Source: an uncultured virus (IMG/VR IMGVR_UViG_3300034062_004781)
Taxonomy: Duplodnaviria; Heunggongvirae; Uroviricota; Caudoviricetes
Virus record (IMG/VR): IMGVR_UViG_3300034062_004781
Direction: 5' to 3' (one strand)
Length of the DNA: 20,000 nt
This document shows, one piece after another, positions 1-17,648 of the stretch. Below the pieces are notes generated by a model that was given only the letters and a program-made list of their open reading frames with translations, was not told where the DNA came from and ran no database searches. Within the stretch, counting starts at the first letter, position 1. Each line of letters starts with the position of its first letter. Position numbers and translations under genes: made by a program.

Positions 1-1326
1 GTTCTGCCTCGCACCTGTGTCCGCCATGAGGAAGCCGGGGAAGTTCGCATACATGCCGGCGTCCAGCATTTCGCGCCACGCGGCAGTAACCGCATTTGTG
101 GTATTACCCAGAATATGAAGTAGACCGATATCGTAAAAACCCATACCGGGAACAAACTGATATTTGACAAAATTGACGCGAGCCTCTGGCAGCTCGTCGC
201 CCTCTTCACCTGTGGGCTCATCGTAGTTCCTCACGATTGAGAGGATTTCCCTTGAGCTTTTGTCGATTGTTACACGATACGGGATCTCGAGCCCCGTTAT
301 CTTACCTTTGTATTTATGTTCGAAGCCGCGAATGTCTAACTCGCAATAAACCTCATAGATCTCGCGATCACGGTCATCAGGATTGCGCGCCTCGACAGCA
401 ATGCCTTGCTGATCTGCCTTCTCGCGCTTTACGGCGTCGGCTTCTTCGAAGCTCGGCGTTCCGAGATCAACGTCGCGATAAACGCCAAGGATCTGAAGTC
501 GCTTGACGGTAGATGGCTTGAGGCTGACGCGATGCGTAATGCGTTTAGCCGTGCTGAGATCGGTTGCCGCGTTATTGACGATGAGATCATCAGCGTCAAC
601 AGATTCGGAAACCGGGCGTCCTCTAAGCGGACAGAAATAGACTTTCTTGAAAGCCGTTCCGCCAAAGCCCAGCATGAGAAGCATTCGATCCGTGTCAGGG
701 TAATACTCCTTCGCGACAGCCGTCAGATAATGATTGAGATCTGACTCGAGCGCATTGGCGCGCTCGTCTTCTTCAATCGTCGTGCCATCAGCTTCGCTGC
801 GCACCTTCACAGGACCATCGGTCGGCAACAGCTCGCTGCGCGCATTAGCCTGAAAGCGCAACACCGCTTCAAGAAGAAGCGGATGACGCACCTTCGACAT
901 GCCTTCGACCGGAGCGCCATCAGACGCGCCCTGCAGGCCGGGGATCTCGATCTTCAAGCCAAGCAGCTTGATGCCCTGCGCACGATCCTCGATCCAATCC
1001 TGACGGCTTGTCAGATCGTCTTCGATGCCACGCAGCAAGTCATCGGCAATCATGCCAAGATCGCTGCCGTCGATGTCTTCGACAAGATTGTCGAACCAGC
1101 CCGGCGGGTTCTCGCCTTCGGCGCGCTCCACAGGGTTGCCGTCGAGCGAAACGCTCACCGAGCCATCATCGTGCTCGATGCGCAGAATATTGCCCTTGTC
1201 GTCGGTCTCTGGTTTGTCGTGACCTTGCTCGATCTCGACAAGGATGTCTTCAAGGCCGCCAAGGCCGCCGGTCGGCACCCCTTCTTGCTGGCGGAGTGAA
1301 GGTGTGAGCCCGGGCGTCAATGGCAT
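1..1326 (-). CDS. Phage portal protein, N-terminal part (runs off the window's left edge)
   Basis: Manual translation gives an open frame from ATG at 1326 to the edge: MPLTPGLTPSLRQQEG...DDLTSRQDWIEDRAQGIKLLGLK...HPLLLEAVLRFQANARSELLPTDGPVK...GTAFKKVYF...FVKYQFVPGMGFYDIGLLHILG. These motifs resemble podovirus-type portal proteins and the gene lies downstream of TerL. It is absent from the ORF track because there is no stop codon in the window. Confidence 0.85.
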   Translation of the reverse strand, partial: MPLTPGLTPSLRQQEGVPTGGLGGLEDILVEIEQGHDKPETDDKGNILRIEHDDGSVSVSLDGNPVERAEGENPPGWFDNLVEDIDGSDLGMIADDLLRGIEDDLTSRQDWIEDRAQGIKLLGLKIEIPGLQGASDGAPVEGMSKVRHPLLLEAVLRFQANARSELLPTDGPVKVRSEADGTTIEEDERANALESDLNHYLTAVAKEYYPDTDRMLLMLGFGGTAFKKVYFCPLRGRPVSESVDADDLIVNNAATDLSTAKRITHRVSLKPSTVKRLQILGVYRDVDLGTPSFEEADAVKREKADQQGIAVEARNPDDRDREIYEVYCELDIRGFEHKYKGKITGLEIPYRVTIDKSSREILSIVRNYDEPTGEEGDELPEARVNFVKYQFVPGMGFYDIGLLHILGNTTNAVTAAWREMLDAGMYANFPGFLMADTGARQN

Positions 1327-1328
1327 GA

Positions 1329-1547
1329 TCAGTCTTCCTTGTCCTCATCGATGAGGCGTGAAATTTCGTCGACGAAACGCTCGAGGCCTTCGCGCGCAGC
1401 CATATTATCATCTTTGGCTTGGATCTCATAGACGCGCACATAATCGTGGGGCTCCTTGCCCCAGACGGTGACGCTGAATTTTCCAAGGCCCTGACCGTGG
1501 GCCGGCGGCTCGTCGATCACGTCGACGACAGCATTTGCATAGATCAT
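1329..1547 (-). CDS. Hypothetical protein (72 aa) between TerL and portal
   Basis: Fills the gap between TerL and portal on the same strand with tight spacing. Confidence 0.75.
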   Translation of the reverse strand: MIYANAVVDVIDEPPAHGQGLGKFSVTVWGKEPHDYVRVYEIQAKDDNMAAREGLERFVDEISRLIDEDKED

Positions 1548-1558
1548 CTTGATTCCAA

Positions 1559-3190
1559 TTAAACGGGATAGAGCGGCTGCGGGCCAGCGCCTTCATGCAT
1601 TCTACTCTCGTCGAGACTGGACGTCCATTCTGCGCCGCGCACAAGGATGCCGATCTCGCGAAGATGCTTCAGCGCCATTGATGTCGTATCGACAAGGTCG
1701 TCATGCTTGCCGCGCGGGAACTGCGCCGCTTGGTTGATGACCATCTCGGCCCAAGGTCGATTGGCAGGCGCGTAGATCAGCCCCTCGGCGAATAGATGCT
1801 GGATCGAGTAGAGACGGGCAAGCTTGTCGAGCCCCTTCGGGTCAATCAGCTGGACGGCGAATTCATCGTATCCGTAGACGCGACGGATTTCCTGCGCCAC
1901 GCTGTAGCCGCTGGCTTTGTTCTCGATGAGCAATTTCTCGACGCCATAATTGTCCATCGTCTCCTGCACCTTATCGATCAGCTCGTGCAGCTCGAGGCGC
2001 TCAGCCCATGCATACATGAGCATGCAGCGCGGGTGTTCTTCCTTATATTGGCGATTGAGGATCGCCATCTGGCCGTCTTTGTCGAGCGCCCGGGTGACGA
2101 CGGCTGTCTGGTCGCCGCCCTTCCAGACGCCCCAGACGGTCATGGCGCTCGGATCGTTCTCGGCCTTGGTTGTATAGGCAGTGTCGATTGAGGCTATGAC
2201 GTAGTCAAAGGGCGGGTATGACGGCTGATCCCAGCGGATCCACCAGTCGCGCTTGATGACGCCGCCGCCGCGCGGCTCGGGGCTTTGCTGGAACTGCCCG
2301 GCTGTGGCGTAGGGGCCCAGAGAGTTTTCATCCCTATCGACCACAATCTCGGGAAAACGAGCCGGAAAAAGAAGCTGCCCCTCTTCGGTTCTGGGGTCTT
2401 CAGTTCCGAGCAATGTCTCATGTGCTCGCCCCGGGTCGTAGCGCATCGGAAGCATAATATGGTCATAACCGAGATCCTTGCTCAGGATGACGCCCGACAC
2501 GTCCTCTTCGTGCAGGCGCTGCATGATGACGATGATGGCTGATTCGAGCGGCTTGTTCAGACGGGTTGGGACGGCCTCGAGAAACCACTCGATGGTGCTC
2601 GCGCGCTGCTGATCAGAGTTCGCACCTTCAACGCTGTGCGGGTCGTCGATGATGACGCGGTCGCCGCGCGCGCCGGTAATGGAGCCGGCGGCCACAGCCT
2701 GCCGGAAGCCGGTCGAGGTCAGTTCGAACTTGGTTTTCTGATTTTGATCTTTGGTGATCTGGACGCGGTCGCCCCAGCGCTCCTGATACCATTCTGATTC
2801 GATCAGGCGTCGCATCTTGGTCGAATCACGGATGGCAAGATCCATCGAGTGTGACGCGCAGAGATAGCGCAGGTGCGGCATGTTCTTCGGCCCCCATTCC
2901 CATGAAGGCCAAAAGACGTTTGTGAGGAGCGACTTCATCATGCCCGGCGGCACGTTGATCAGCAGACGATTGTATTTCGTTCCGTCGTCGAACTCGACGC
3001 CATATGTGATGGCCTCGAGATGCTCGCAGATGATGTCAACGTGCCAATTGTGAATGTAGTCTGCACCGGGCTCGACGATGTGCCACGCCTGACGAATAAA
3101 CTCTGCAAGACTTTCTTCGCACTCGTCGCGGCTGATATCAATTAGCGTTTTACGAGCGTCGATCTTTTTGCCGAATAATTCGACGATCAA
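1559..3190 (-). CDS. terL: Terminase large subunit
   Basis: Walker A-like INVPPGMMKS, Walker B VIIDDP, coupling motif IMQRLHEED, RNase H-like nuclease motifs SIDTA and HDDLVD. The ORF track starts at 3211, but TTG at 3190 has an AAGGGA SD and overlaps the upstream stop (TTGA). Confidence 0.95.
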   Translation of the reverse strand: MIVELFGKKIDARKTLIDISRDECEESLAEFIRQAWHIVEPGADYIHNWHVDIICEHLEAITYGVEFDDGTKYNRLLINVPPGMMKSLLTNVFWPSWEWGPKNMPHLRYLCASHSMDLAIRDSTKMRRLIESEWYQERWGDRVQITKDQNQKTKFELTSTGFRQAVAAGSITGARGDRVIIDDPHSVEGANSDQQRASTIEWFLEAVPTRLNKPLESAIIVIMQRLHEEDVSGVILSKDLGYDHIMLPMRYDPGRAHETLLGTEDPRTEEGQLLFPARFPEIVVDRDENSLGPYATAGQFQQSPEPRGGGVIKRDWWIRWDQPSYPPFDYVIASIDTAYTTKAENDPSAMTVWGVWKGGDQTAVVTRALDKDGQMAILNRQYKEEHPRCMLMYAWAERLELHELIDKVQETMDNYGVEKLLIENKASGYSVAQEIRRVYGYDEFAVQLIDPKGLDKLARLYSIQHLFAEGLIYAPANRPWAEMVINQAAQFPRGKHDDLVDTTSMALKHLREIGILVRGAEWTSSLDESRMHEGAGPQPLYPV

Positions 3191-3456
3191 TGCGGCGTCC
3201 CTTCGATCCACGCAGTCATATTATTTTTCTTCGCGAGCATCACCGACCTATTTATCGCCTCGGTGAACATTTCAAATTCTTCTTTGACGTCTTTCTCTTG
3301 CGTAACCATCGAGCACAACATACACGAAGCGGCTGAGGCCAAGATCTGCAAAGCGAAGTGCGCGTCATCTTGCTTTTGCAAAACCGCCATCACATCCTTT
3401 ACGCCCTCAACCAGCTCCCGCAGCTCCTCACTGATCTCGCCTTCATTGTCGTTCAT
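3187..3456 (-). CDS. Hypothetical protein (89 aa) between TerS and TerL
   Basis: Overlaps both neighbours by 4 nt, suggesting translational coupling. Confidence 0.75.
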   Translation of the reverse strand: MNDNEGEISEELRELVEGVKDVMAVLQKQDDAHFALQILASAASCMLCSMVTQEKDVKEEFEMFTEAINRSVMLAKKNNMTAWIEGTPH

Positions 3457-3911
3457 TTATCGTCCGCCACAGCCATGAGCGCCGCTTTCAGCGCTTCACG
3501 CTGTTCTGCGTCGAGAGCCTTCGTATCAATCCGGGCGACGGTCTCGGTCTTGATCGCGCCACCGTCAGCGCCGGTGACTTCTGTCACCTTGCGCTCGGTG
3601 TAGTCTTCGCGGAATCGCGCCTGCATAGACGTGCGCCAGACGACCGCGTTGAACTTGTCCATGAACATGCCGCGACGCCCTGCGTTCTCCCACCACTGCT
3701 GCTCGAGCATCTTCGCGCGCGTAAGGGCTGTCGAAAATTCTTCATGAGAGGCGGCCCAATCATAGAGCGTCGGCCTATCCACATCGCATGCGAGCGCCCA
3801 ATCGACCGGCCCAGCGCCTTCTACAGCCAGCTCGACGATCTTCTCGCAGAACTCCGGCTTATACTTGCTCGGGCGGCCCACAGGGCGCTTTTTGGGGGCT
3901 TCTTCGGCCAT
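3453..3911 (-). CDS. terS: Terminase small subunit
   Basis: GRPSKYKPEFCEKI...CDVDRPTLYDWAASHEEFSTALTRAK HTH N-terminus and EVTGADGGAI C-terminal motif, typical of Sf6/P22-like TerS. Located upstream of TerL. Confidence 0.85.
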   Translation of the reverse strand: MAEEAPKKRPVGRPSKYKPEFCEKIVELAVEGAGPVDWALACDVDRPTLYDWAASHEEFSTALTRAKMLEQQWWENAGRRGMFMDKFNAVVWRTSMQARFREDYTERKVTEVTGADGGAIKTETVARIDTKALDAEQREALKAALMAVADDK

Positions 3912-4837: not shown

Positions 4838-4850
4838 GTCAATTTTCCGC

Positions 4851-4879
4851 TTGTAGAGTGAAGAAACTTCATATATGGT
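4851..4879 (+). promoter_or_regulatory. Sigma70-like promoter P1 with a palindromic operator in its spacer
   Basis: TTGTAG-N17-TATGGT. The spacer contains TGAAG-AAA-CTTCA (4859-4871). It lies directly upstream of the early operon. Confidence 0.65.
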
Positions 4880-4914
4880 GATTCTATTGATTGAGATTGA
4901 ACTGGAGACTGACC

Positions 4915-5217
4915 ATGAACAACACCGCTGCTCTCGCCGACGCCTACGCCGCTCTCAAGCACGAGGAAGCCTCCATAAAGGCTCGCCTCGAAACGCTCAA
5001 GGGCGAAATCGTCTCCTACGGCGAGAAGGAGCTGGTCGGCGACACCTGCATCGTGGCGCTGGTCGAGAAGAAGGGCGCTTCGACGCTCGACAAGGATGCC
5101 GCGCTGAATCTGCTGCGTTCGCTCGGTGCCTCTGACGAGCAGATCGCCAGCCTGACGAAGATCGGCAAGCCGTCGACGTCACTGCTGATCAAGCCGAAGC
5201 TGTCGCTGGCTATATAA
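4915..5217 (+). CDS. Hypothetical early protein (100 aa), coiled-coil N-terminus
   Basis: SD GGAGA with ATG at 4915 (MNNTAALADAYAALKHEE...). The TAA stop abuts hammerhead 1. Confidence 0.85.
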   Translation: MNNTAALADAYAALKHEEASIKARLETLKGEIVSYGEKELVGDTCIVALVEKKGASTLDKDAALNLLRSLGASDEQIASLTKIGKPSTSLLIKPKLSLAI

Positions 5218-5271
5218 GGTCGAAACGGGGCTCCGGCCCCGTCTGTCCGTCAAGCGGGCACTGATGAGACC
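5218..5271 (+). ncRNA. Hammerhead ribozyme, type II (copy 1); predicted cleavage after C5243
   Basis: GGUC-GAA-[ACGGGGC UCCG GCCCCGU]-C-[UGUCCG UCAAG CGGGCA]-CUGAUGA-GACC. Complete CUGAUGA and GAAA core, GUC cleavage triplet, three stems with stem II open. Confidence 0.95.
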
Positions 5272-5284
5272 GATGGAGATTGAT

Positions 5285-5437
5285 ATGATCAAGGTGCGCA
5301 AAAACTCGAAGATCAAAGTGTGGAACATCTATGCGTTCGATGGCGAGAACCTCGGCACCTATTCGTTCCATACGCAGGAGGTGAAAGCTTATTTTCCCGG
5401 CTGCACGATCAAGGGCAACAACGTCTACCTTTTGTAA
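5285..5437 (+). CDS. Small hypothetical protein (50 aa) bracketed by two hammerheads, not in the ORF track
   Basis: ATGGAGATTGATATG start motif, then MIKVRKNSKIKVWNIYAFDGENLGTYSFHTQEVKAYFPGCTIKGNNVYLL*. The TAA stop abuts hammerhead 2. Confidence 0.85.
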   Translation: MIKVRKNSKIKVWNIYAFDGENLGTYSFHTQEVKAYFPGCTIKGNNVYLL

Positions 5438-5489
5438 GGTCGAAACGCTCTTCGGAGCGTCTGACGGTCAGGCCGTCACTGATGAGACC
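5438..5489 (+). ncRNA. Hammerhead ribozyme, type II (copy 2); predicted cleavage after C5461
   Basis: GGUC-GAA-[ACGCUC UUCG GAGCGU]-C-[UGACGG UCAGG CCGUCA]-CUGAUGA-GACC. Core identical to copy 1 with compensatory changes in stems I and III. Confidence 0.95.
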
Positions 5490-5502
5490 AAGGAGAATTG
5501 AC

Positions 5503-5733
5503 ATGCGTTCTATTGCTGTTATCGCTCGCGAGATCCGCGCTGATTGGAAGAAGCCTTACTTTGGCGCTGTGCCGTATCTCGATGCAATGTGCGAGCTTAA
5601 TTCAATCAACGACAACTATTACTATGATAGCGGCGAATCAGTCGTTCGTTATTTTCTTGCCAACGCCAATACATGGCGCGGCGAGAAGGCTCGCGCTGTT
5701 AAAGCTGAACTCAAAAAGATTTTGGGAGAGTGA
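5503..5733 (+). CDS. Conserved-looking phage hypothetical protein (76 aa)
   Basis: SD AAGGAG with ATG at 5503: MRSIAVIAREIRADWKKPYFGAVPYLDAM...FLANANTWRGEKARAVKAELKKIL. It resembles a phage family of unknown function (recalled, not searched). Confidence 0.85.
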   Translation: MRSIAVIAREIRADWKKPYFGAVPYLDAMCELNSINDNYYYDSGESVVRYFLANANTWRGEKARAVKAELKKILGE

Positions 5734-5734
5734 T

Positions 5735-6022
5735 ATGAGCGAAGATAAAAAATATACAGCATTCGTTCGCGCAGGCGGAACTTGCTCTTGGTATTGTGCC
5801 GAAGGAAAAACAGAGGCAGCGACGAAAGCCGTTCAACAATACAAGCGCGACTTTAAACACGTCTTCAAGATCAAGAAAGGCGTCGAATACAAGGTCGTCG
5901 TGTTTGACACGACAGGCATTGAAGAATGGGTCACAGATGACGATGGCTTTCTTCATCCATTTTACAATGGCGTCGCAAGCGATCCGATCAAAGATTATGA
6001 GATTGTAAAAGTATATGCTTAA
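5735..6022 (+). CDS. Hypothetical early protein (95 aa)
   Basis: GGGAGAG-TGA-T-ATG coupling to the previous gene; starts MSEDKKYTAF. Confidence 0.8.
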   Translation: MSEDKKYTAFVRAGGTCSWYCAEGKTEAATKAVQQYKRDFKHVFKIKKGVEYKVVVFDTTGIEEWVTDDDGFLHPFYNGVASDPIKDYEIVKVYA

Positions 6023-6024
6023 AC

Positions 6025-6044
6025 GATGGGGCTACGGCCCCATC
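6025..6044 (+). repeat. Intergenic UNCG hairpin GATGGGGC-TACG-GCCCCATC
   Basis: Perfect 8-bp stem just after a stop codon, with no U-tract. Same core as 7147-7164 and as stem III of hammerhead 1. Confidence 0.7.
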
Positions 6045-6061
6045 TAACACCGGAGATTGAT

Positions 6062-6271
6062 ATGCTCGAGATCATCAAGCCAATACCTGATAGCCCTCTG
6101 CATAATGAGAGCGATGCGTCTCTAAAAACGCTGATCAATTATTTTAGAGACGACATGCAGATCAGGCCGAACGCTGTCATCATCGAGCATCATGCAAACA
6201 AGATCGATGAAATATACAAAGTGCTCGGATATCGCTGCGCACTTGAATACATCAAACAGTATGGAGATTGA
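6062..6271 (+). CDS. Hypothetical early protein (69 aa)
   Basis: GGAGATTGATATG start motif; starts MLEIIKPIPD. Confidence 0.8.
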   Translation: MLEIIKPIPDSPLHNESDASLKTLINYFRDDMQIRPNAVIIEHHANKIDEIYKVLGYRCALEYIKQYGD

Positions 6272-6272
6272 T

Positions 6273-6716
6273 ATGGGAACGCGCGCTGTTTACACCTTCA
6301 ACGACGGTGATGATCGCTTTCACGTTTACAAGCACTGGGACGGCTACCCGTTAGGCGCTGCGCTCTTCTTCATGAAGGCCATCCCCTATGCATGGGGCGG
6401 TAAACGCTTTGAAGCTGGCGATTTTGCCGCAGCCTTCATATCTGGCAACAAGCCCGAAGGCGGTGGCGACGTCTACCTTACAAAAGGCCCCAATGCCCAT
6501 TGCGACCTCGAGTATGTGTATGAGCTCTACCAGAACAAGCTGGGTGGCCTGATGATCAAGGCCTACCATATGGACTGGGATGGCGAGACAGACAAGACCA
6601 GCAAGAAGCGGTTCTTCAATGGGTCACTGGTCAGCTTTGTCATGGAGCATGGCGACGACGAAGCCAAGCAAAAGGCCGATGAGCACTGGAATCTGAGCCC
6701 AAAAGCAGCCGCATAA
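6273..6716 (+). CDS. Conserved phage hypothetical protein (147 aa) with M-x-T-R...Y-x-H-W-D-G-Y-P motif
   Basis: Start motif present; MGTRAVYTF...HVYKHWDGYP resembles a widespread phage family of unknown function (recalled, not searched). Confidence 0.85.
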   Translation: MGTRAVYTFNDGDDRFHVYKHWDGYPLGAALFFMKAIPYAWGGKRFEAGDFAAAFISGNKPEGGGDVYLTKGPNAHCDLEYVYELYQNKLGGLMIKAYHMDWDGETDKTSKKRFFNGSLVSFVMEHGDDEAKQKADEHWNLSPKAAA

Positions 6717-8279: not shown

Positions 8280-8468
8280 TCAAAAATCAGTGTCATATCT
8301 TTCGTTTAGCTCTTTGAGCATTTCAAGGCGAATAACCTGCCGCTTCAATGCAGATATTGCTTCTTCGTTTTCATCGAAGATTGCGTCATGCAATTTTGAT
8401 TGAGCAAACTTTAATTCGCGCTCAACTTCTCGGGGAGGTGCAAAAAGAGATGTTTTTGCTTCTGTCAT
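8280..8468 (-). CDS. Hypothetical protein (62 aa)
   Basis: ATGA overlap with the HNH gene; helical composition. Confidence 0.7.
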   Translation of the reverse strand: MTEAKTSLFAPPREVERELKFAQSKLHDAIFDENEEAISALKRQVIRLEMLKELNERYDTDF

Positions 8469-9019
8469 GACTGCCTCGCATAGCTTCCGTGATATTTTAT
8501 CTCCGCTTGCTTTCTTGCGTCAACCGCTTCTTCAATAGTATTAAAACATCCAAAATTATGAGCCTTATTATTTATGTATATTCTTGCTCTCCATTTACCG
8601 CTTCTACCATATTTATAAACGCCCTTATAACCAGAAGTATTGGACGGAAGTAAATTCTTATTTATCTGCTGTTGAGAATCTGTTGCTTCTCTTAAATTTA
8701 ATATTCTATTGTCGCTTTTAATTCCATTTATATGATCTATTTCTTTCTTAGGAACGTATCCATGATGCATAGCAAAACATAGAATGTGGCCGCCAACATA
8801 CCTGCCAAACAATTCGACCGATAAATATTTTTGATTATCTATAAAACCAGCTTCTTTATTCGCATAATTTGAATTGAAATAAGAAGATGACCTTAATGGG
8901 TATTTAGCATGCGAGCACATTTCGGGTGTTCGTTCTCTCCAATATAATTTTCCTGTTTCGGGATCATACCGAAACAGTTGACGCAAAGTCTCAATGTCGG
9001 GTAAATCTTTTTTAGCCAT
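8465..9019 (-). CDS. HNH endonuclease with C-terminal AP2 DNA-binding domain (free-standing homing endonuclease type)
   Basis: LRQLFRYDPETGKLYW N-terminus, EIDHINGIKSDNRILNLREAT (HNH), NTSGYKGVY...KWRARI...GCFNTIEEAVDARKQAE (AP2). Visibly AT-rich relative to its flanks. Confidence 0.93.
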   Translation of the reverse strand: MAKKDLPDIETLRQLFRYDPETGKLYWRERTPEMCSHAKYPLRSSSYFNSNYANKEAGFIDNQKYLSVELFGRYVGGHILCFAMHHGYVPKKEIDHINGIKSDNRILNLREATDSQQQINKNLLPSNTSGYKGVYKYGRSGKWRARIYINNKAHNFGCFNTIEEAVDARKQAEIKYHGSYARQS

Positions 9020-12873: not shown

Positions 12874-12979
12874 TTTGAGGGGCCTTCTATATCGATTGAT
12901 TTACGTCATGATTTATGAGATATTCGCATTGTTACCTTGGCTCTCTGTCATTGTGACGTTTTCCTCCCTTGAATGACTG

Positions 12980-13006
12980 GAGCGGCGAAGGGGCCGCTCT
13001 TTTTTT
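12980..13006 (+). terminator. Hairpin with a T-run, oriented against the leftward genes
   Basis: GAGCGGC-GAAGGG-GCCGCTC-TTTTTTT. Confidence 0.55.
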
Positions 13007-13394
13007 ATAGCTCAACAATTATATGACCATATGAATCGATCTCAAGTTTAGGATCTGGTCGAGGCAAAACTACAAAAGTTTTCCCCTTGCTGCTTTGCTT
13101 CCACATAAATCCATATTCGCAATCTATTGTATGTATAACCGGAACCACTACAGGGCCTTGAATAATATCACCCTCCCAACCGATCTTTCTTGCAGCTTGA
13201 AGAGATGCATTAAATTTCCCTATAAAATCATTTATGTCAGAATAATCGAGTGAGTAAACTTTTAGCCTCTTCAAAGAGTTATCTGTTCTTTCTTTGATTG
13301 TATCACAGTGTTGAAATATCATGTCTTTTACAGGAACAAAAAAATTCCAACCGAAATCAACCGGACTTATTGCGTATGCGTAAAGATAATCCAT
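13005..13394 (-). CDS. AT-rich hypothetical protein (129 aa)
   Basis: SD AGGAG; YAYAISPVDFGW...ARKIGWEGDI...FMWKQSSKGKTFVV. Compositionally distinct insert. Confidence 0.8.
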   Translation of the reverse strand: MDYLYAYAISPVDFGWNFFVPVKDMIFQHCDTIKERTDNSLKRLKVYSLDYSDINDFIGKFNASLQAARKIGWEGDIIQGPVVVPVIHTIDCEYGFMWKQSSKGKTFVVLPRPDPKLEIDSYGHIIVEL

Positions 13395-17432: not shown

Positions 17433-17648
17433 GTGGAAGAAACCTGCGAATATTACAAATACGTCCCGCATCACCAGCAAAAGATCTGGGAAGAAGCCGG
17501 GTGGGTATTTGAGAGAGATCTAGGACCGCCTCACGCGGCCTATGCAAGCTTGTTTAAATGGCCGCTGGATAGCGCGCCTGTCATCCCAGACAATACAGGC
17601 GTCGTGATAATTAAAACACTACCGGAGATTGACGATGGCGAACAATGA
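17433..17648 (+). CDS. Hypothetical protein (71 aa)
   Basis: SD GAGGG with GTG start; YKYVPHH...GW...HAAYASLFKW. Confidence 0.7.
   Translation: MEETCEYYKYVPHHQQKIWEEAGWVFERDLGPPHAAYASLFKWPLDSAPVIPDNTGVVIIKTLPEIDDGEQ

What the first reader, a model, noticed from the sequence alone, without database searches (positions are those of the whole stretch)
5244..5461. Ribozyme-excised 218-nt mini-mRNA that could circularise (retrozyme/viroid-like architecture carrying a 50-aa ORF)
Seen: cleavage at both sites releases 5244-5461, which is stem I(1)-CUGAUGA-GACC-SD-50-codon ORF-UAA-GGUC-GAAA-stem III(2)-GUC. Stem II (GACC/GGUC) is identical in both copies, so GACC 5268-5271 can pair with GGUC 5438-5441. 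That rebuilds a chimeric hammerhead around the fragment's own two ends, with the whole ORF looped out of stem II. Established: tandem hammerheads generate circular RNAs in viroids and retrozymes, and 5'-OH plus cyclic-phosphate ends can be joined by reverse hammerhead chemistry or RtcB. Inference: the phage may make an exonuclease-resistant circular mRNA for a small basic beta-rich protein, or the unit 'ribozyme + SD + ORF' is a mobile cassette. I know of no characterised phage example.
Basis: inference. Interest (0 to 1): 0.88.

Follow-up and report, generated by a model that had tools for sequence, protein, structure and literature searches.

The report
Two hammerhead ribozymes flanking phage gene
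Two genuine self-cutting hammerhead RNA motifs bracket a 50-codon gene in a lake phage operon and most likely chop one long message into hairpin-capped single-gene messages, a layout known in phages since 2011; nothing tested supports a circular mRNA.

Summary
Two canonical type II hammerheads lie at 5218-5271 and 5438-5489 (+). Their predicted cuts after 5243 and 5461 would release the 218-nt unit 5244-5461, which carries a 50-aa gene under purifying selection (dN/dS 0.04-0.17). The layout is not new. Perreault et al. 2011 described clustered hammerheads flanking single prophage genes, considered circular products and detected none. This scan has also raised the same idea on other phages.

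Comparative tests argue against a selected circular form:
- 4 of 14 loci with the gene lack one of the two ribozymes. A promoter-like stretch, a plain gene junction or a terminator-like hairpin sits there instead.
- In 34 adjacent hammerhead pairs with different stem II, each ribozyme's own stem II is perfect in 62 of 68 cases. The "chimeric" stem II across the gene is perfect in 0 of 34 and mismatched in 27.
- The 218-nt RNA has no unusual structure (z -0.78).
- The junction probe found only chance matches, and no RNA data exist.

The chimeric helix is thermodynamically accessible here (P 0.41), but no more than in shuffles.

Best reading: intercistronic processing into linear, hairpin-ended mRNAs. 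The ribozymes also coincide with mosaic gene junctions, which partly supports the "cassette" idea.

The parts
4915..5217 (+). Gene A (100 aa from ATG 4915, SD GGAG 4904; frame open from TTG 4891). Its stop TAA 5215-5217 abuts the ribozyme, and its last A is the conserved A just before stem II.
   Evidence: No Pfam or PHROG match. 8 related loci in viral contigs; a hammerhead follows the gene in 3 of these 8 (L213, L214 after one extra gene, L215). In a ninth locus, L131 (found through gene B), a hammerhead also follows gene A.
5218..5271 (+). Hammerhead 1, type II. Stem II 5' strand 5218-5221; GAAA 5222-5225; stem III hairpin 5225-5242 (UCCG loop); C17 5243 with the cut between 5243 and 5244; stem I hairpin 5244-5260; CUGAUGA 5261-5267; stem II 3' strand 5268-5271.
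   Evidence: (RF02276 35.6 bits, E 5e-4).
5244..5461 (+). Predicted 218-nt RNA released by the two cuts. Expected ends: 5'-OH with the stem I hairpin, and the stem III hairpin with a 2',3'-cyclic phosphate.
   Evidence: Coordinates. Fold: (MFE -65 kcal/mol, z -0.78). Chimeric stem II probability 0.41, not above shuffles. The end chemistry is inferred from hammerhead chemistry and was not measured.
5275..5287 (+). Translation initiation region GGAGAUUGAUAUG of gene B.
   Evidence: The same 13-mer also starts genes without any ribozyme at 6053-6064 and 6262-6275 and in L135.
5285..5437 (+). Gene B, 50 aa, basic, function unknown.
   Evidence: 12 related loci plus L215. dN/dS 0.04-0.17 in the pairs where dS could be estimated. 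No family. No Atlas lead. AlphaFold best model pLDDT 80, other four 45-64, beta-beta-alpha-beta-beta. No PDB fold match at E <= 0.001.
5438..5489 (+). Hammerhead 2, type II. Stem II 5438-5441 with 5486-5489; stem III hairpin 5445-5460 (UUCG loop); cut between 5461 and 5462; stem I hairpin 5462-5478; CUGAUGA 5479-5485.
   Evidence: (RF02276 29.6 bits, E 0.019).
5503..5733 (+). Gene C, 76 aa, conserved phage protein of unknown function (phrog_13953), with SD AAGGAG 5490-5495.
   Evidence: 72 related loci; only 2 (close relatives of the window) have a hammerhead directly upstream.

Best explanation
The two hammerheads are intercistronic self-cleaving elements of a phage operon (A-HH1-B-HH2-C-D...). 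As the polycistronic transcript is made, each ribozyme folds on its own. Its own 4-bp stem II closes it, using the sequence just after the upstream stop codon and just before the downstream Shine-Dalgarno. It then cuts between stems III and I.

The result is linear single-gene mRNAs. Each begins with a 5'-OH and the stem I hairpin followed by its own ribosome-binding site. Each ends with the stem III hairpin and a 2',3'-cyclic phosphate.

This uncouples the stability and translation of gene B from its neighbours, much like a natural ribozyme insulator.

Shown here: the motifs, their family, their covariation and their position at gene junctions.
Inferred: cleavage in vivo, the chemistry of the ends, and the benefit for stability and insulation.

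The ribozymes also coincide with the points where gene modules are exchanged between related phages.
For: 1. Canonical core and three helices; Hammerhead_II match over the full model. Strong covariation. 131 of 138 core-bounded spans form both stems.

2. The window is a phage: terminase, portal, primase-helicase.

3. Position at gene junctions. In 187 distinct hammerhead contexts, the stop of an open frame of at least 40 codons ends within -5..+2 of the ribozyme in 148, against 6.3% of 3740 random positions. An SD plus start lies within 40 nt downstream in 158, against 19.8%. In 66 of 80 adjacent pairs, one ORF fills at least 60% of the gap.

4. Each ribozyme's own stem II is a perfect 4 bp in 62 of 68 ribozymes whose neighbour has a different stem II. 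This shows selection on each hammerhead as a separate unit.

5. Where gene B is first in its operon (L138, AT-rich promoter-like upstream) or last (L139 and L140, terminator-like hairpin), the ribozyme on that side is absent. That fits elements that separate cistrons.

6. Literature. Clustered prophage hammerheads cleave in vitro and in E. coli (PMC3088659, passages). Two D. vulgaris type II hammerheads about 313 nt apart yield captured 2',3'-cP and 5'-OH ends in vivo (PMC8782182, passages). Processing of polycistronic transcripts is the suggested role (PMC6765202, passages).
Against: - No RNA data exist for this phage, so cleavage in vivo is not shown.
- Both motifs score just under Rfam's gathering score.
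- The loop I / 3'-tail pseudoknot reported for type II hammerheads is not detectable in this subfamily (observed 3.16 against permuted 3.15). The tertiary contact needed for fast cleavage at cellular Mg2+ is therefore unidentified.
- Only 2 of about 6 junctions in this operon carry a ribozyme, and other genes use the same ribosome-binding site without one. Processing is thus not generally required for expression.
- 70 of 72 homologues of gene C have no ribozyme of this subfamily directly upstream; one of the 70 (L211) has one 243 nt upstream.
- The benefit for stability or insulation is inferred only.
Confidence: 0.7

Rival explanations
1. Circular mRNA as a selected product. After both cuts, the 218-nt RNA re-forms a hammerhead around its own ends (GACC 5268-5271 with GGUC 5438-5441). 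It is then closed by the reverse reaction or by a host RtcB-type ligase, giving an exonuclease-resistant translatable circle.
For: - The geometry is right, and stem II is identical in both copies.
- The chimeric helix has probability 0.41 in the folded fragment, ddG +0.55 kcal/mol.
- E. coli RtcB joins 2',3'-cP and 5'-OH ends (stated in PMC8782182).
- 46 of 80 adjacent pairs share an identical stem II. This set was seeded on GGTC/GACC, so the count is biased.
Against: - 4 of 14 loci with gene B lack one flanking ribozyme.
- In loci with both ribozymes, the chimeric stem II is perfect in only 3 of 10. L131 has a wobble pair, L132, L133, L134, L136 and L137 have a wobble plus a mismatch, and L215 has two mismatches.
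- Across 34 pairs with different stem II, the chimeric helix is perfect in 0 and mismatched in 27. These pairs are not all independent.
- The 0.41 is reached by 27% of shuffled interiors.
- There is no rod-like or otherwise unusual fold.
- 0 of 5 related phage records, 3 of them complete, encode RtcB.
- Perreault et al. report not detecting circular products from such tandems (data not shown in the paper).
Confidence: 0.08
2. The main significance is at the DNA level. The hammerhead sequences are the shared junctions at which gene cassettes (stem I + RBS + ORF + stop + stem III) are exchanged between phages by recombination. RNA cleavage is secondary.
For: - Gene B lies between at least five different pairs of neighbours.
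- Upstream of B, the stem I arms UGUCCG/CGGGCA are constant although the upstream gene varies.
- Downstream of B, in the window, L130, L131 and L215, stem III CGCUCUUCGGAGCG is constant, while stem I changes with the downstream gene in three ways.
- In lake DNA contigs, similarity to the window starts or stops at ribozyme edges (5217/5220, 5271, 5435, 5489). One 151-nt contig has an HH1 copy with 2 differences and unrelated flanks on both sides.
Against: - The sample is small, from essentially one gene family.
- A wider crude survey found only 22 related pairs of contexts, with breakpoints on either side of the ribozyme.
- Mosaic junctions at gene borders are usual in phages with or without ribozymes.
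- Strict conservation of the catalytic core and compensatory changes in all stems show selection on the RNA, not merely on a DNA site.
- No A-HH-C 'empty site' was found among 8 gene A loci and 72 gene C loci.
Confidence: 0.12
3. Conditional or regulatory cleavage. The ribozymes cut only under particular conditions (ions, a factor, transcription speed) and so tune the ratio of polycistronic to processed mRNA and the dosage of gene B.
For: - No recognisable tertiary stabiliser.
- In a plain secondary-structure model, each ribozyme's own stem II in precursor context has a low predicted probability: 0.23 for HH1 and 0.02 for HH2.
- Perreault et al. raise regulated cleavage for phage hammerheads.
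Against: - No ligand-binding or switch element is visible.
- The core is fully canonical.
- The secondary-structure model ignores tertiary and co-transcriptional folding.
Confidence: 0.07
4. Inactive relics or selfish hitch-hiking motifs with no role for the phage.
For: - Sporadic distribution. Homologues of genes A and C mostly lack them, and L135 expresses gene B without the upstream copy.
Against: - The core is invariant in 109 of 109 aligned copies, and there are compensatory changes in every helix.
- Placement relative to stop and start codons is precise.
Confidence: 0.03

Closest known systems
Clustered hammerhead ribozymes flanking single genes or short gene blocks in prophages (Perreault et al. 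2011, PLoS Comput Biol, PMC3088659; passages read)
   Same: - Type II architecture and same-strand tandem copies.
- One small gene per interval, with the flanked genes varying in identity.
- Phage context.
- The same proposed role, cutting long phage transcripts into gene-length mRNAs.
- The authors already raised circular or spliced products.
   Different: - This is a free lake phage from metagenomes, not one of their prophages.
- It belongs to a subfamily with a fixed 4-bp stem II (mostly GGUC/GACC) and no detectable loop I / 3'-tail pseudoknot.
- Activity was not tested here.
Desulfovibrio vulgaris type II hammerheads loc 2 and loc 3 (Olzog et al. 2021, cyPhyRNA-seq, PMC8782182; passages read)
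   Same: Two type II hammerheads about 313 nt apart beside a small gene among phage-like genes. Both kinds of cleavage ends were captured in vivo.
   Different: - A different organism and different sequences.
- There the linear ends were observed; here nothing was measured.
Rfam RF02276 Hammerhead_II (clan CL00010)
   Same: Full-length alignment to the model, including the conserved A before stem II, GAAAC, GUC and CUGAUGA.
   Different: Scores of 35.6 and 29.6 bits are below the gathering score of 37. Stem II is 4 bp here against 2 modelled pairs, and the 3' tail does not match the model consensus.
Plant LTR retrozymes and metazoan retrozymes; hammerhead viroids (de la Pena et al. 2020 review, PMC7761336, passages read)
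   Same: Two same-polarity hammerheads delimit a unit whose ends could be ligated.
   Different: - Those use type III or type I hammerheads, are non-coding and highly structured, are repeated in the genome, and are known to accumulate as circles.
- This unit uses type II, encodes a protein under purifying selection, has no unusual fold, is single-copy in a DNA phage, and has no evidence of a circle.

Membership tests
Type II hammerhead ribozyme (RF02276) | Catalytic core: CUGAUGA, GAAA and an NUH cleavage triplet in the right order | tested here: met
   Both copies have CUGAUGA, GAAA and GUC. These core columns are invariant in 109 of 109 aligned relatives.
Type II hammerhead ribozyme (RF02276) | Three helices around the core, with helices I and III closed by loops and helix II open-ended | tested here: met
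   Stems were read directly and appear in the Rfam alignment. 99.5% of cells are paired, and 12 of 15 pairs have changes on both sides.
Type II hammerhead ribozyme (RF02276) | Score at or above the curated gathering score (37 bits) | tested here: not met
   35.6 and 29.6 bits; no match at gathering level. Relatives with the same architecture also score 26-36 bits, so the model is weak for this subfamily.
Type II hammerhead ribozyme (RF02276) | Tertiary contact: pseudoknot between loop I and the nucleotides just 3' of stem II (Perreault 2011) | tested here: not met
   GUCAA/UUGAU and GUCAG/UUGAC are complementary in the window. Across 176 contexts, however, the best helix score is 3.16 against 3.15 for permuted partners. 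In close relatives loop I varies while the 3' sequence stays GGAGAUUGAUAUG.
Type II hammerhead ribozyme (RF02276) | Self-cleavage activity | not testable with these tools
   No RNA run is listed for this DNA.
Clustered prophage/phage hammerheads flanking genes (Perreault 2011) | Two or more same-strand hammerheads at gene junctions of a phage operon, with flanked genes that vary | tested here: met
   Phage genes in the window. 80 distinct adjacent pairs spaced 215-1185 nt in viral contigs. One ORF fills the gap in 66 of 80. The neighbours of gene B vary.
Viroid-like / retrozyme circular RNA | Circular molecules (junction-spanning sequence) | tested here: inconclusive
   The 19-nt junction probe gave 3 matches in metagenome contigs, all inside unrelated coding sequence with no hammerhead context. 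No RNA run is listed. One 'goes back' joint in a 151-nt DNA contig is a related phage's downstream ribozyme aligning to HH1.
Viroid-like / retrozyme circular RNA | Compact, highly base-paired non-coding RNA | tested here: not met
   z-score -0.78, with 42 of 200 shuffles folding as well. The unit encodes a conserved protein.
Viroid-like / retrozyme circular RNA | Both delimiting ribozymes kept together, and their halves mutually compatible across the unit | tested here: not met
   One ribozyme is missing in 4 of 14 gene B loci. The chimeric stem II is perfect in 0 of 34 informative pairs against 62 of 68 for the ribozymes' own stems.

The most novel reading that the evidence does not exclude
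The cleavage-to-cleavage unit (stem I, ribosome-binding site, ORF, stop, stem III) is both an RNA unit and the unit of gene shuffling among these phages. In phages like this one, where both flanking ribozymes share stem II, part of the excised 218-nt mRNA re-forms a hammerhead around its own ends. It is then closed by the reverse reaction or by host RtcB into a circular, translatable mRNA. This would be the first natural circular mRNA made by tandem ribozymes in a DNA phage.
Probability: 0.1. Interest if true: 0.8.

Novelty: new member of a known kind. Interest (0 to 1): 0.27.

Why it matters
The biological role of bacterial and phage hammerheads is still unsettled (review PMC6765202). This locus adds a clean, well-bounded example: one tiny conserved gene, two ribozymes, and natural relatives with zero or one ribozyme on either side. 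That makes a convenient test bed for three questions:
- whether such ribozymes insulate and stabilise single-gene mRNAs;
- whether they ever yield circles;
- whether they serve as junctions for gene exchange.

By itself it does not change what is known.

Tried and rejected
- **Pseudoknot.** I proposed that loop I (GUCAA/GUCAG) pairs with UUGAU/UUGAC just before the start codons. Rejected: no excess complementarity over permuted partners in 176 contexts. UUGAU is part of a stereotyped initiation region, GGAGAUUGAUAUG, that is also used by ribozyme-free genes.
- **RNA evidence.** No RNA holder is listed for 4840-5760. All 24 runs are freshwater or lake (one labelled fungus) DNA metagenomes.
- **Laying DNA contigs of 4 runs.** This gave one 'goes back 190' joint in a single 151-nt contig. 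Its inserted letters and loose end match the L133-type relative (gene B followed by an AGUC/GACU ribozyme), so it is a mis-placed relative and not a circle junction.
- **Junction probe in metagenome contigs.** 3 chance matches in unrelated genes.
- **Thermodynamic support for the chimeric helix.** P 0.41, but shuffled interiors give mean 0.26 and median 0.07, and 27% reach 0.41.
- **RtcB in 5 related phage records.** None found. The host is unknown, so this does not exclude a host ligase.
- **Function of gene B.** No Pfam or PHROG family, no Atlas lead, and only one of five models confident. No PDB match at E <= 0.001.
- **Breakpoint survey over all contexts.** Only 22 related pairs, too few and too crude to conclude anything.
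- **Locus-wide ORF clustering.** The output was noisy because near-identical loci make spurious ORFs cluster. I used it only for the larger conserved genes.
- **Promoter scan.** No consensus sigma-70-like site for the + strand upstream of gene A.
- **Papers.** Searches for a phage circular RNA made by hammerheads found none. Only listings and the cited passages were read.
- In one search the L215 frame was off by one, so all rows with L215 there are invalid.

Full report
**What is there**

The window is phage DNA. It carries a large and a small terminase subunit and a portal on the minus strand (1-3911). It also has a GapR-like protein, a prim-pol/helicase, a resolvase and an HNH endonuclease.

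A plus-strand operon begins near 4900. Gene A (ATG 4915, stop TAA 5215-5217) comes first, then a 67-nt gap. Gene B follows (5285-5437, 50 aa), then a 65-nt gap. Next come gene C (5503-5733, phrog_13953), gene D (5735-6022) and further small genes.

Each of the two gaps holds a complete type II hammerhead:
- HH1 lies at 5218-5271, with the cut after C5243.
- HH2 lies at 5438-5489, with the cut after C5461.

**Is it real**

Rfam's Hammerhead_II model aligns to both motifs end to end, at 35.6 and 29.6 bits (E 5e-4 and 0.019). The gathering score is 37, so the default scan showed nothing.

Of 138 distinct spans bounded by those strings, 131 form both hairpin stems.

I aligned 109 copies:
- 99.5% of cells are paired.
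- 12 of 15 pairs carry compensatory changes.
- 0 of 500 shuffles reach the covariation score.
- Slid controls fall to 29-44% paired.

Most of those rows had passed a stem filter of mine. One search is the unfiltered check.

A covariance model built from this alignment finds only the two known copies in the window. It finds 244 matches in the fetched loci. I used 240 and left out 4 truncated ones. These gave 185 distinct ribozymes and 80 distinct adjacent pairs spaced 215-1185 nt.

**Where these ribozymes sit**

I examined 187 distinct contexts:
- The stop codon of a long open frame ends within -5..+2 nt of the ribozyme in 148. Random positions on the same strands give 6.3% of 3740.
- A Shine-Dalgarno plus start codon follows within 40 nt in 158, against 19.8% for random positions.
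- In 66 of 80 adjacent pairs, a single ORF fills most of the interval.
- The base before stem II is A in 191 of 193 contexts. In the window this A is the last letter of the TAA of genes A and B.

This is the arrangement described by Perreault et al. 2011. They reported type II hammerheads common in prophages and multiple copies flanking single genes of varying identity. They saw cleavage in vitro and in E. coli. [quoted passage not shown]

In D. vulgaris, two type II hammerheads about 313 nt apart give captured cyclic-phosphate and 5'-OH ends in vivo (PMC8782182, passages).

This scan has already raised the same circular-mRNA idea on other phage windows, with the same outcome.

**Testing the circular reading**

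*a. Are both ribozymes kept with gene B?*

B is a real gene: dN/dS is 0.04-0.17 wherever dS could be estimated.

Fourteen loci carry it: the window, 12, and L215. Ten have both ribozymes. The other four differ:
- In L135 the upstream gene's TAA runs straight into the same ribosome-binding site, with no ribozyme.
- In L138 an AT-rich, promoter-like stretch precedes B.
- In L139 and L140 a terminator-like hairpin follows B.

These are shown. So ribozymes appear where B abuts another cistron and are absent where the transcript would begin or end anyway.

*b. Is the chimeric hammerhead conserved?*

Stem II varies among relatives (GGUC/GACC, AGUC/GACU, GAUC/GAUC, AGCC/GGCU), and it always covaries within one ribozyme.

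Across B, the chimeric helix is perfect only in the window, its near-identical record (L129) and L130. L131 has a wobble pair. Five loci have a wobble plus a mismatch. L215 has two mismatches.

Over all 80 adjacent pairs, 46 share the same stem II. That set was seeded on GGTC/GACC, so the figure is biased. In the 34 pairs that differ:
- each ribozyme's own stem is perfect in 62 of 68;
- the chimeric stem is perfect in 0 of 34;
- it is mismatch-free in 7 and mismatched in 27.

Several of these pairs come from the same contigs, so they are not independent.

*c. Folding.*

The 218-nt RNA has no unusual stability (z -0.78).

Its probability is 0.41 and its ddG is +0.55 kcal/mol. But 27% of shuffled interiors do as well.

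*d. Direct evidence.*
- No RNA run is listed.
- The junction probe hit only unrelated genes.
- One back-joint in a DNA contig is a relative laid on the wrong ribozyme.
- Five related phage records, three of them complete, encode no RtcB. A host ligase remains possible.

**The cassette reading**

B occurs between at least five different pairs of neighbours. The stem I arms upstream of B stay UGUCCG/CGGGCA whatever the upstream gene is.

Downstream of B, the window, L130, L131 and L215 keep stem III as CGCUCUUCGGAGCG. Stem I changes with the downstream gene. So each half of the ribozyme tends to travel with the gene it will remain attached to after cleavage.

In lake DNA contigs, similarity to the window begins or ends at ribozyme edges. 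A near-identical HH1 copy sits in a wholly different context.

The sample is small, and a wider crude survey was uninformative. I rate this as a lead only.

**Conclusion**

The most likely mechanism is co-transcriptional self-cleavage of a polycistronic phage transcript into linear single-gene mRNAs. Each has a 5' stem I hairpin and a 3' stem III hairpin.

A circular product is not excluded for this particular phage. However, it has no comparative support, and several comparative results count against it as a selected function.

Noticed in passing
window 6025-6044: An 8-bp hairpin with a UACG loop sits right after the stop of gene D and 8 nt before the next GGAGAUUGAUAUG. Its core GGGGCUACGGCCCC is identical to the stem III hairpin of the upstream hammerhead in L133 and L215, but no hammerhead core is present. 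It could be a relic of a ribozyme's 5' half or an independent 3'-end hairpin.
   Followed up: partly
window 5275-5287, 6053-6064, 6262-6275; similar at 17624-17637: A stereotyped translation initiation region GGAGAUUGAUAUG is reused by several genes of this phage and its relatives, with or without a ribozyme before it.
   Followed up: partly
L006, L021, L046, L049, L060, L074, L104 and others (23 of 191 contexts): In other phages the five bases right after stem II are AUCAG, the exact complement of the core's CUGAU. About 0.2 such cases are expected by chance, against 23 seen. The pairing could form an alternative hairpin that locks the core, perhaps after cleavage. It is not present in the window's two copies.
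   Followed up: no
window 5217 and 5437; 193 related contexts: The base before stem II is A in 191 of 193 hammerheads, and the base after it is A in 147. In the window this conserved A is the third letter of the upstream TAA, so the stop codon overlaps the ribozyme.
   Followed up: yes
L068-L070 (one 43-kb viral contig): At least 9 hammerheads of this subfamily lie on one strand within about 6 kb. This is a much denser array than in the window.
   Followed up: no
window 12940-13014 (+): A sub-threshold match to the alphaproteobacterial sRNA family suhB/mmgR (27.6 bits, gathering 41, E 0.042), with a CUCCCU motif and a terminator-like hairpin, lies between two minus-strand replication genes. 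It may be only a terminator.
   Followed up: no
window 8280-9019 and 13005-13394 (-): An HNH-AP2 endonuclease gene (8465-9019) and two neighbouring or nearby ORFs have third-position GC of 0.28-0.32, against 0.5-0.8 for most genes. This suggests recently acquired homing-endonuclease-type insertions.
   Followed up: no
window 5217-5271 and 5435-5489, in runs X10, X12, X13: Short DNA contigs from lake metagenomes carry near-identical copies of HH1 or HH2 (2-6 differences) with unrelated sequence on one or both sides. Contigs of the window's own type tend to end at the ribozymes.
   Followed up: partly
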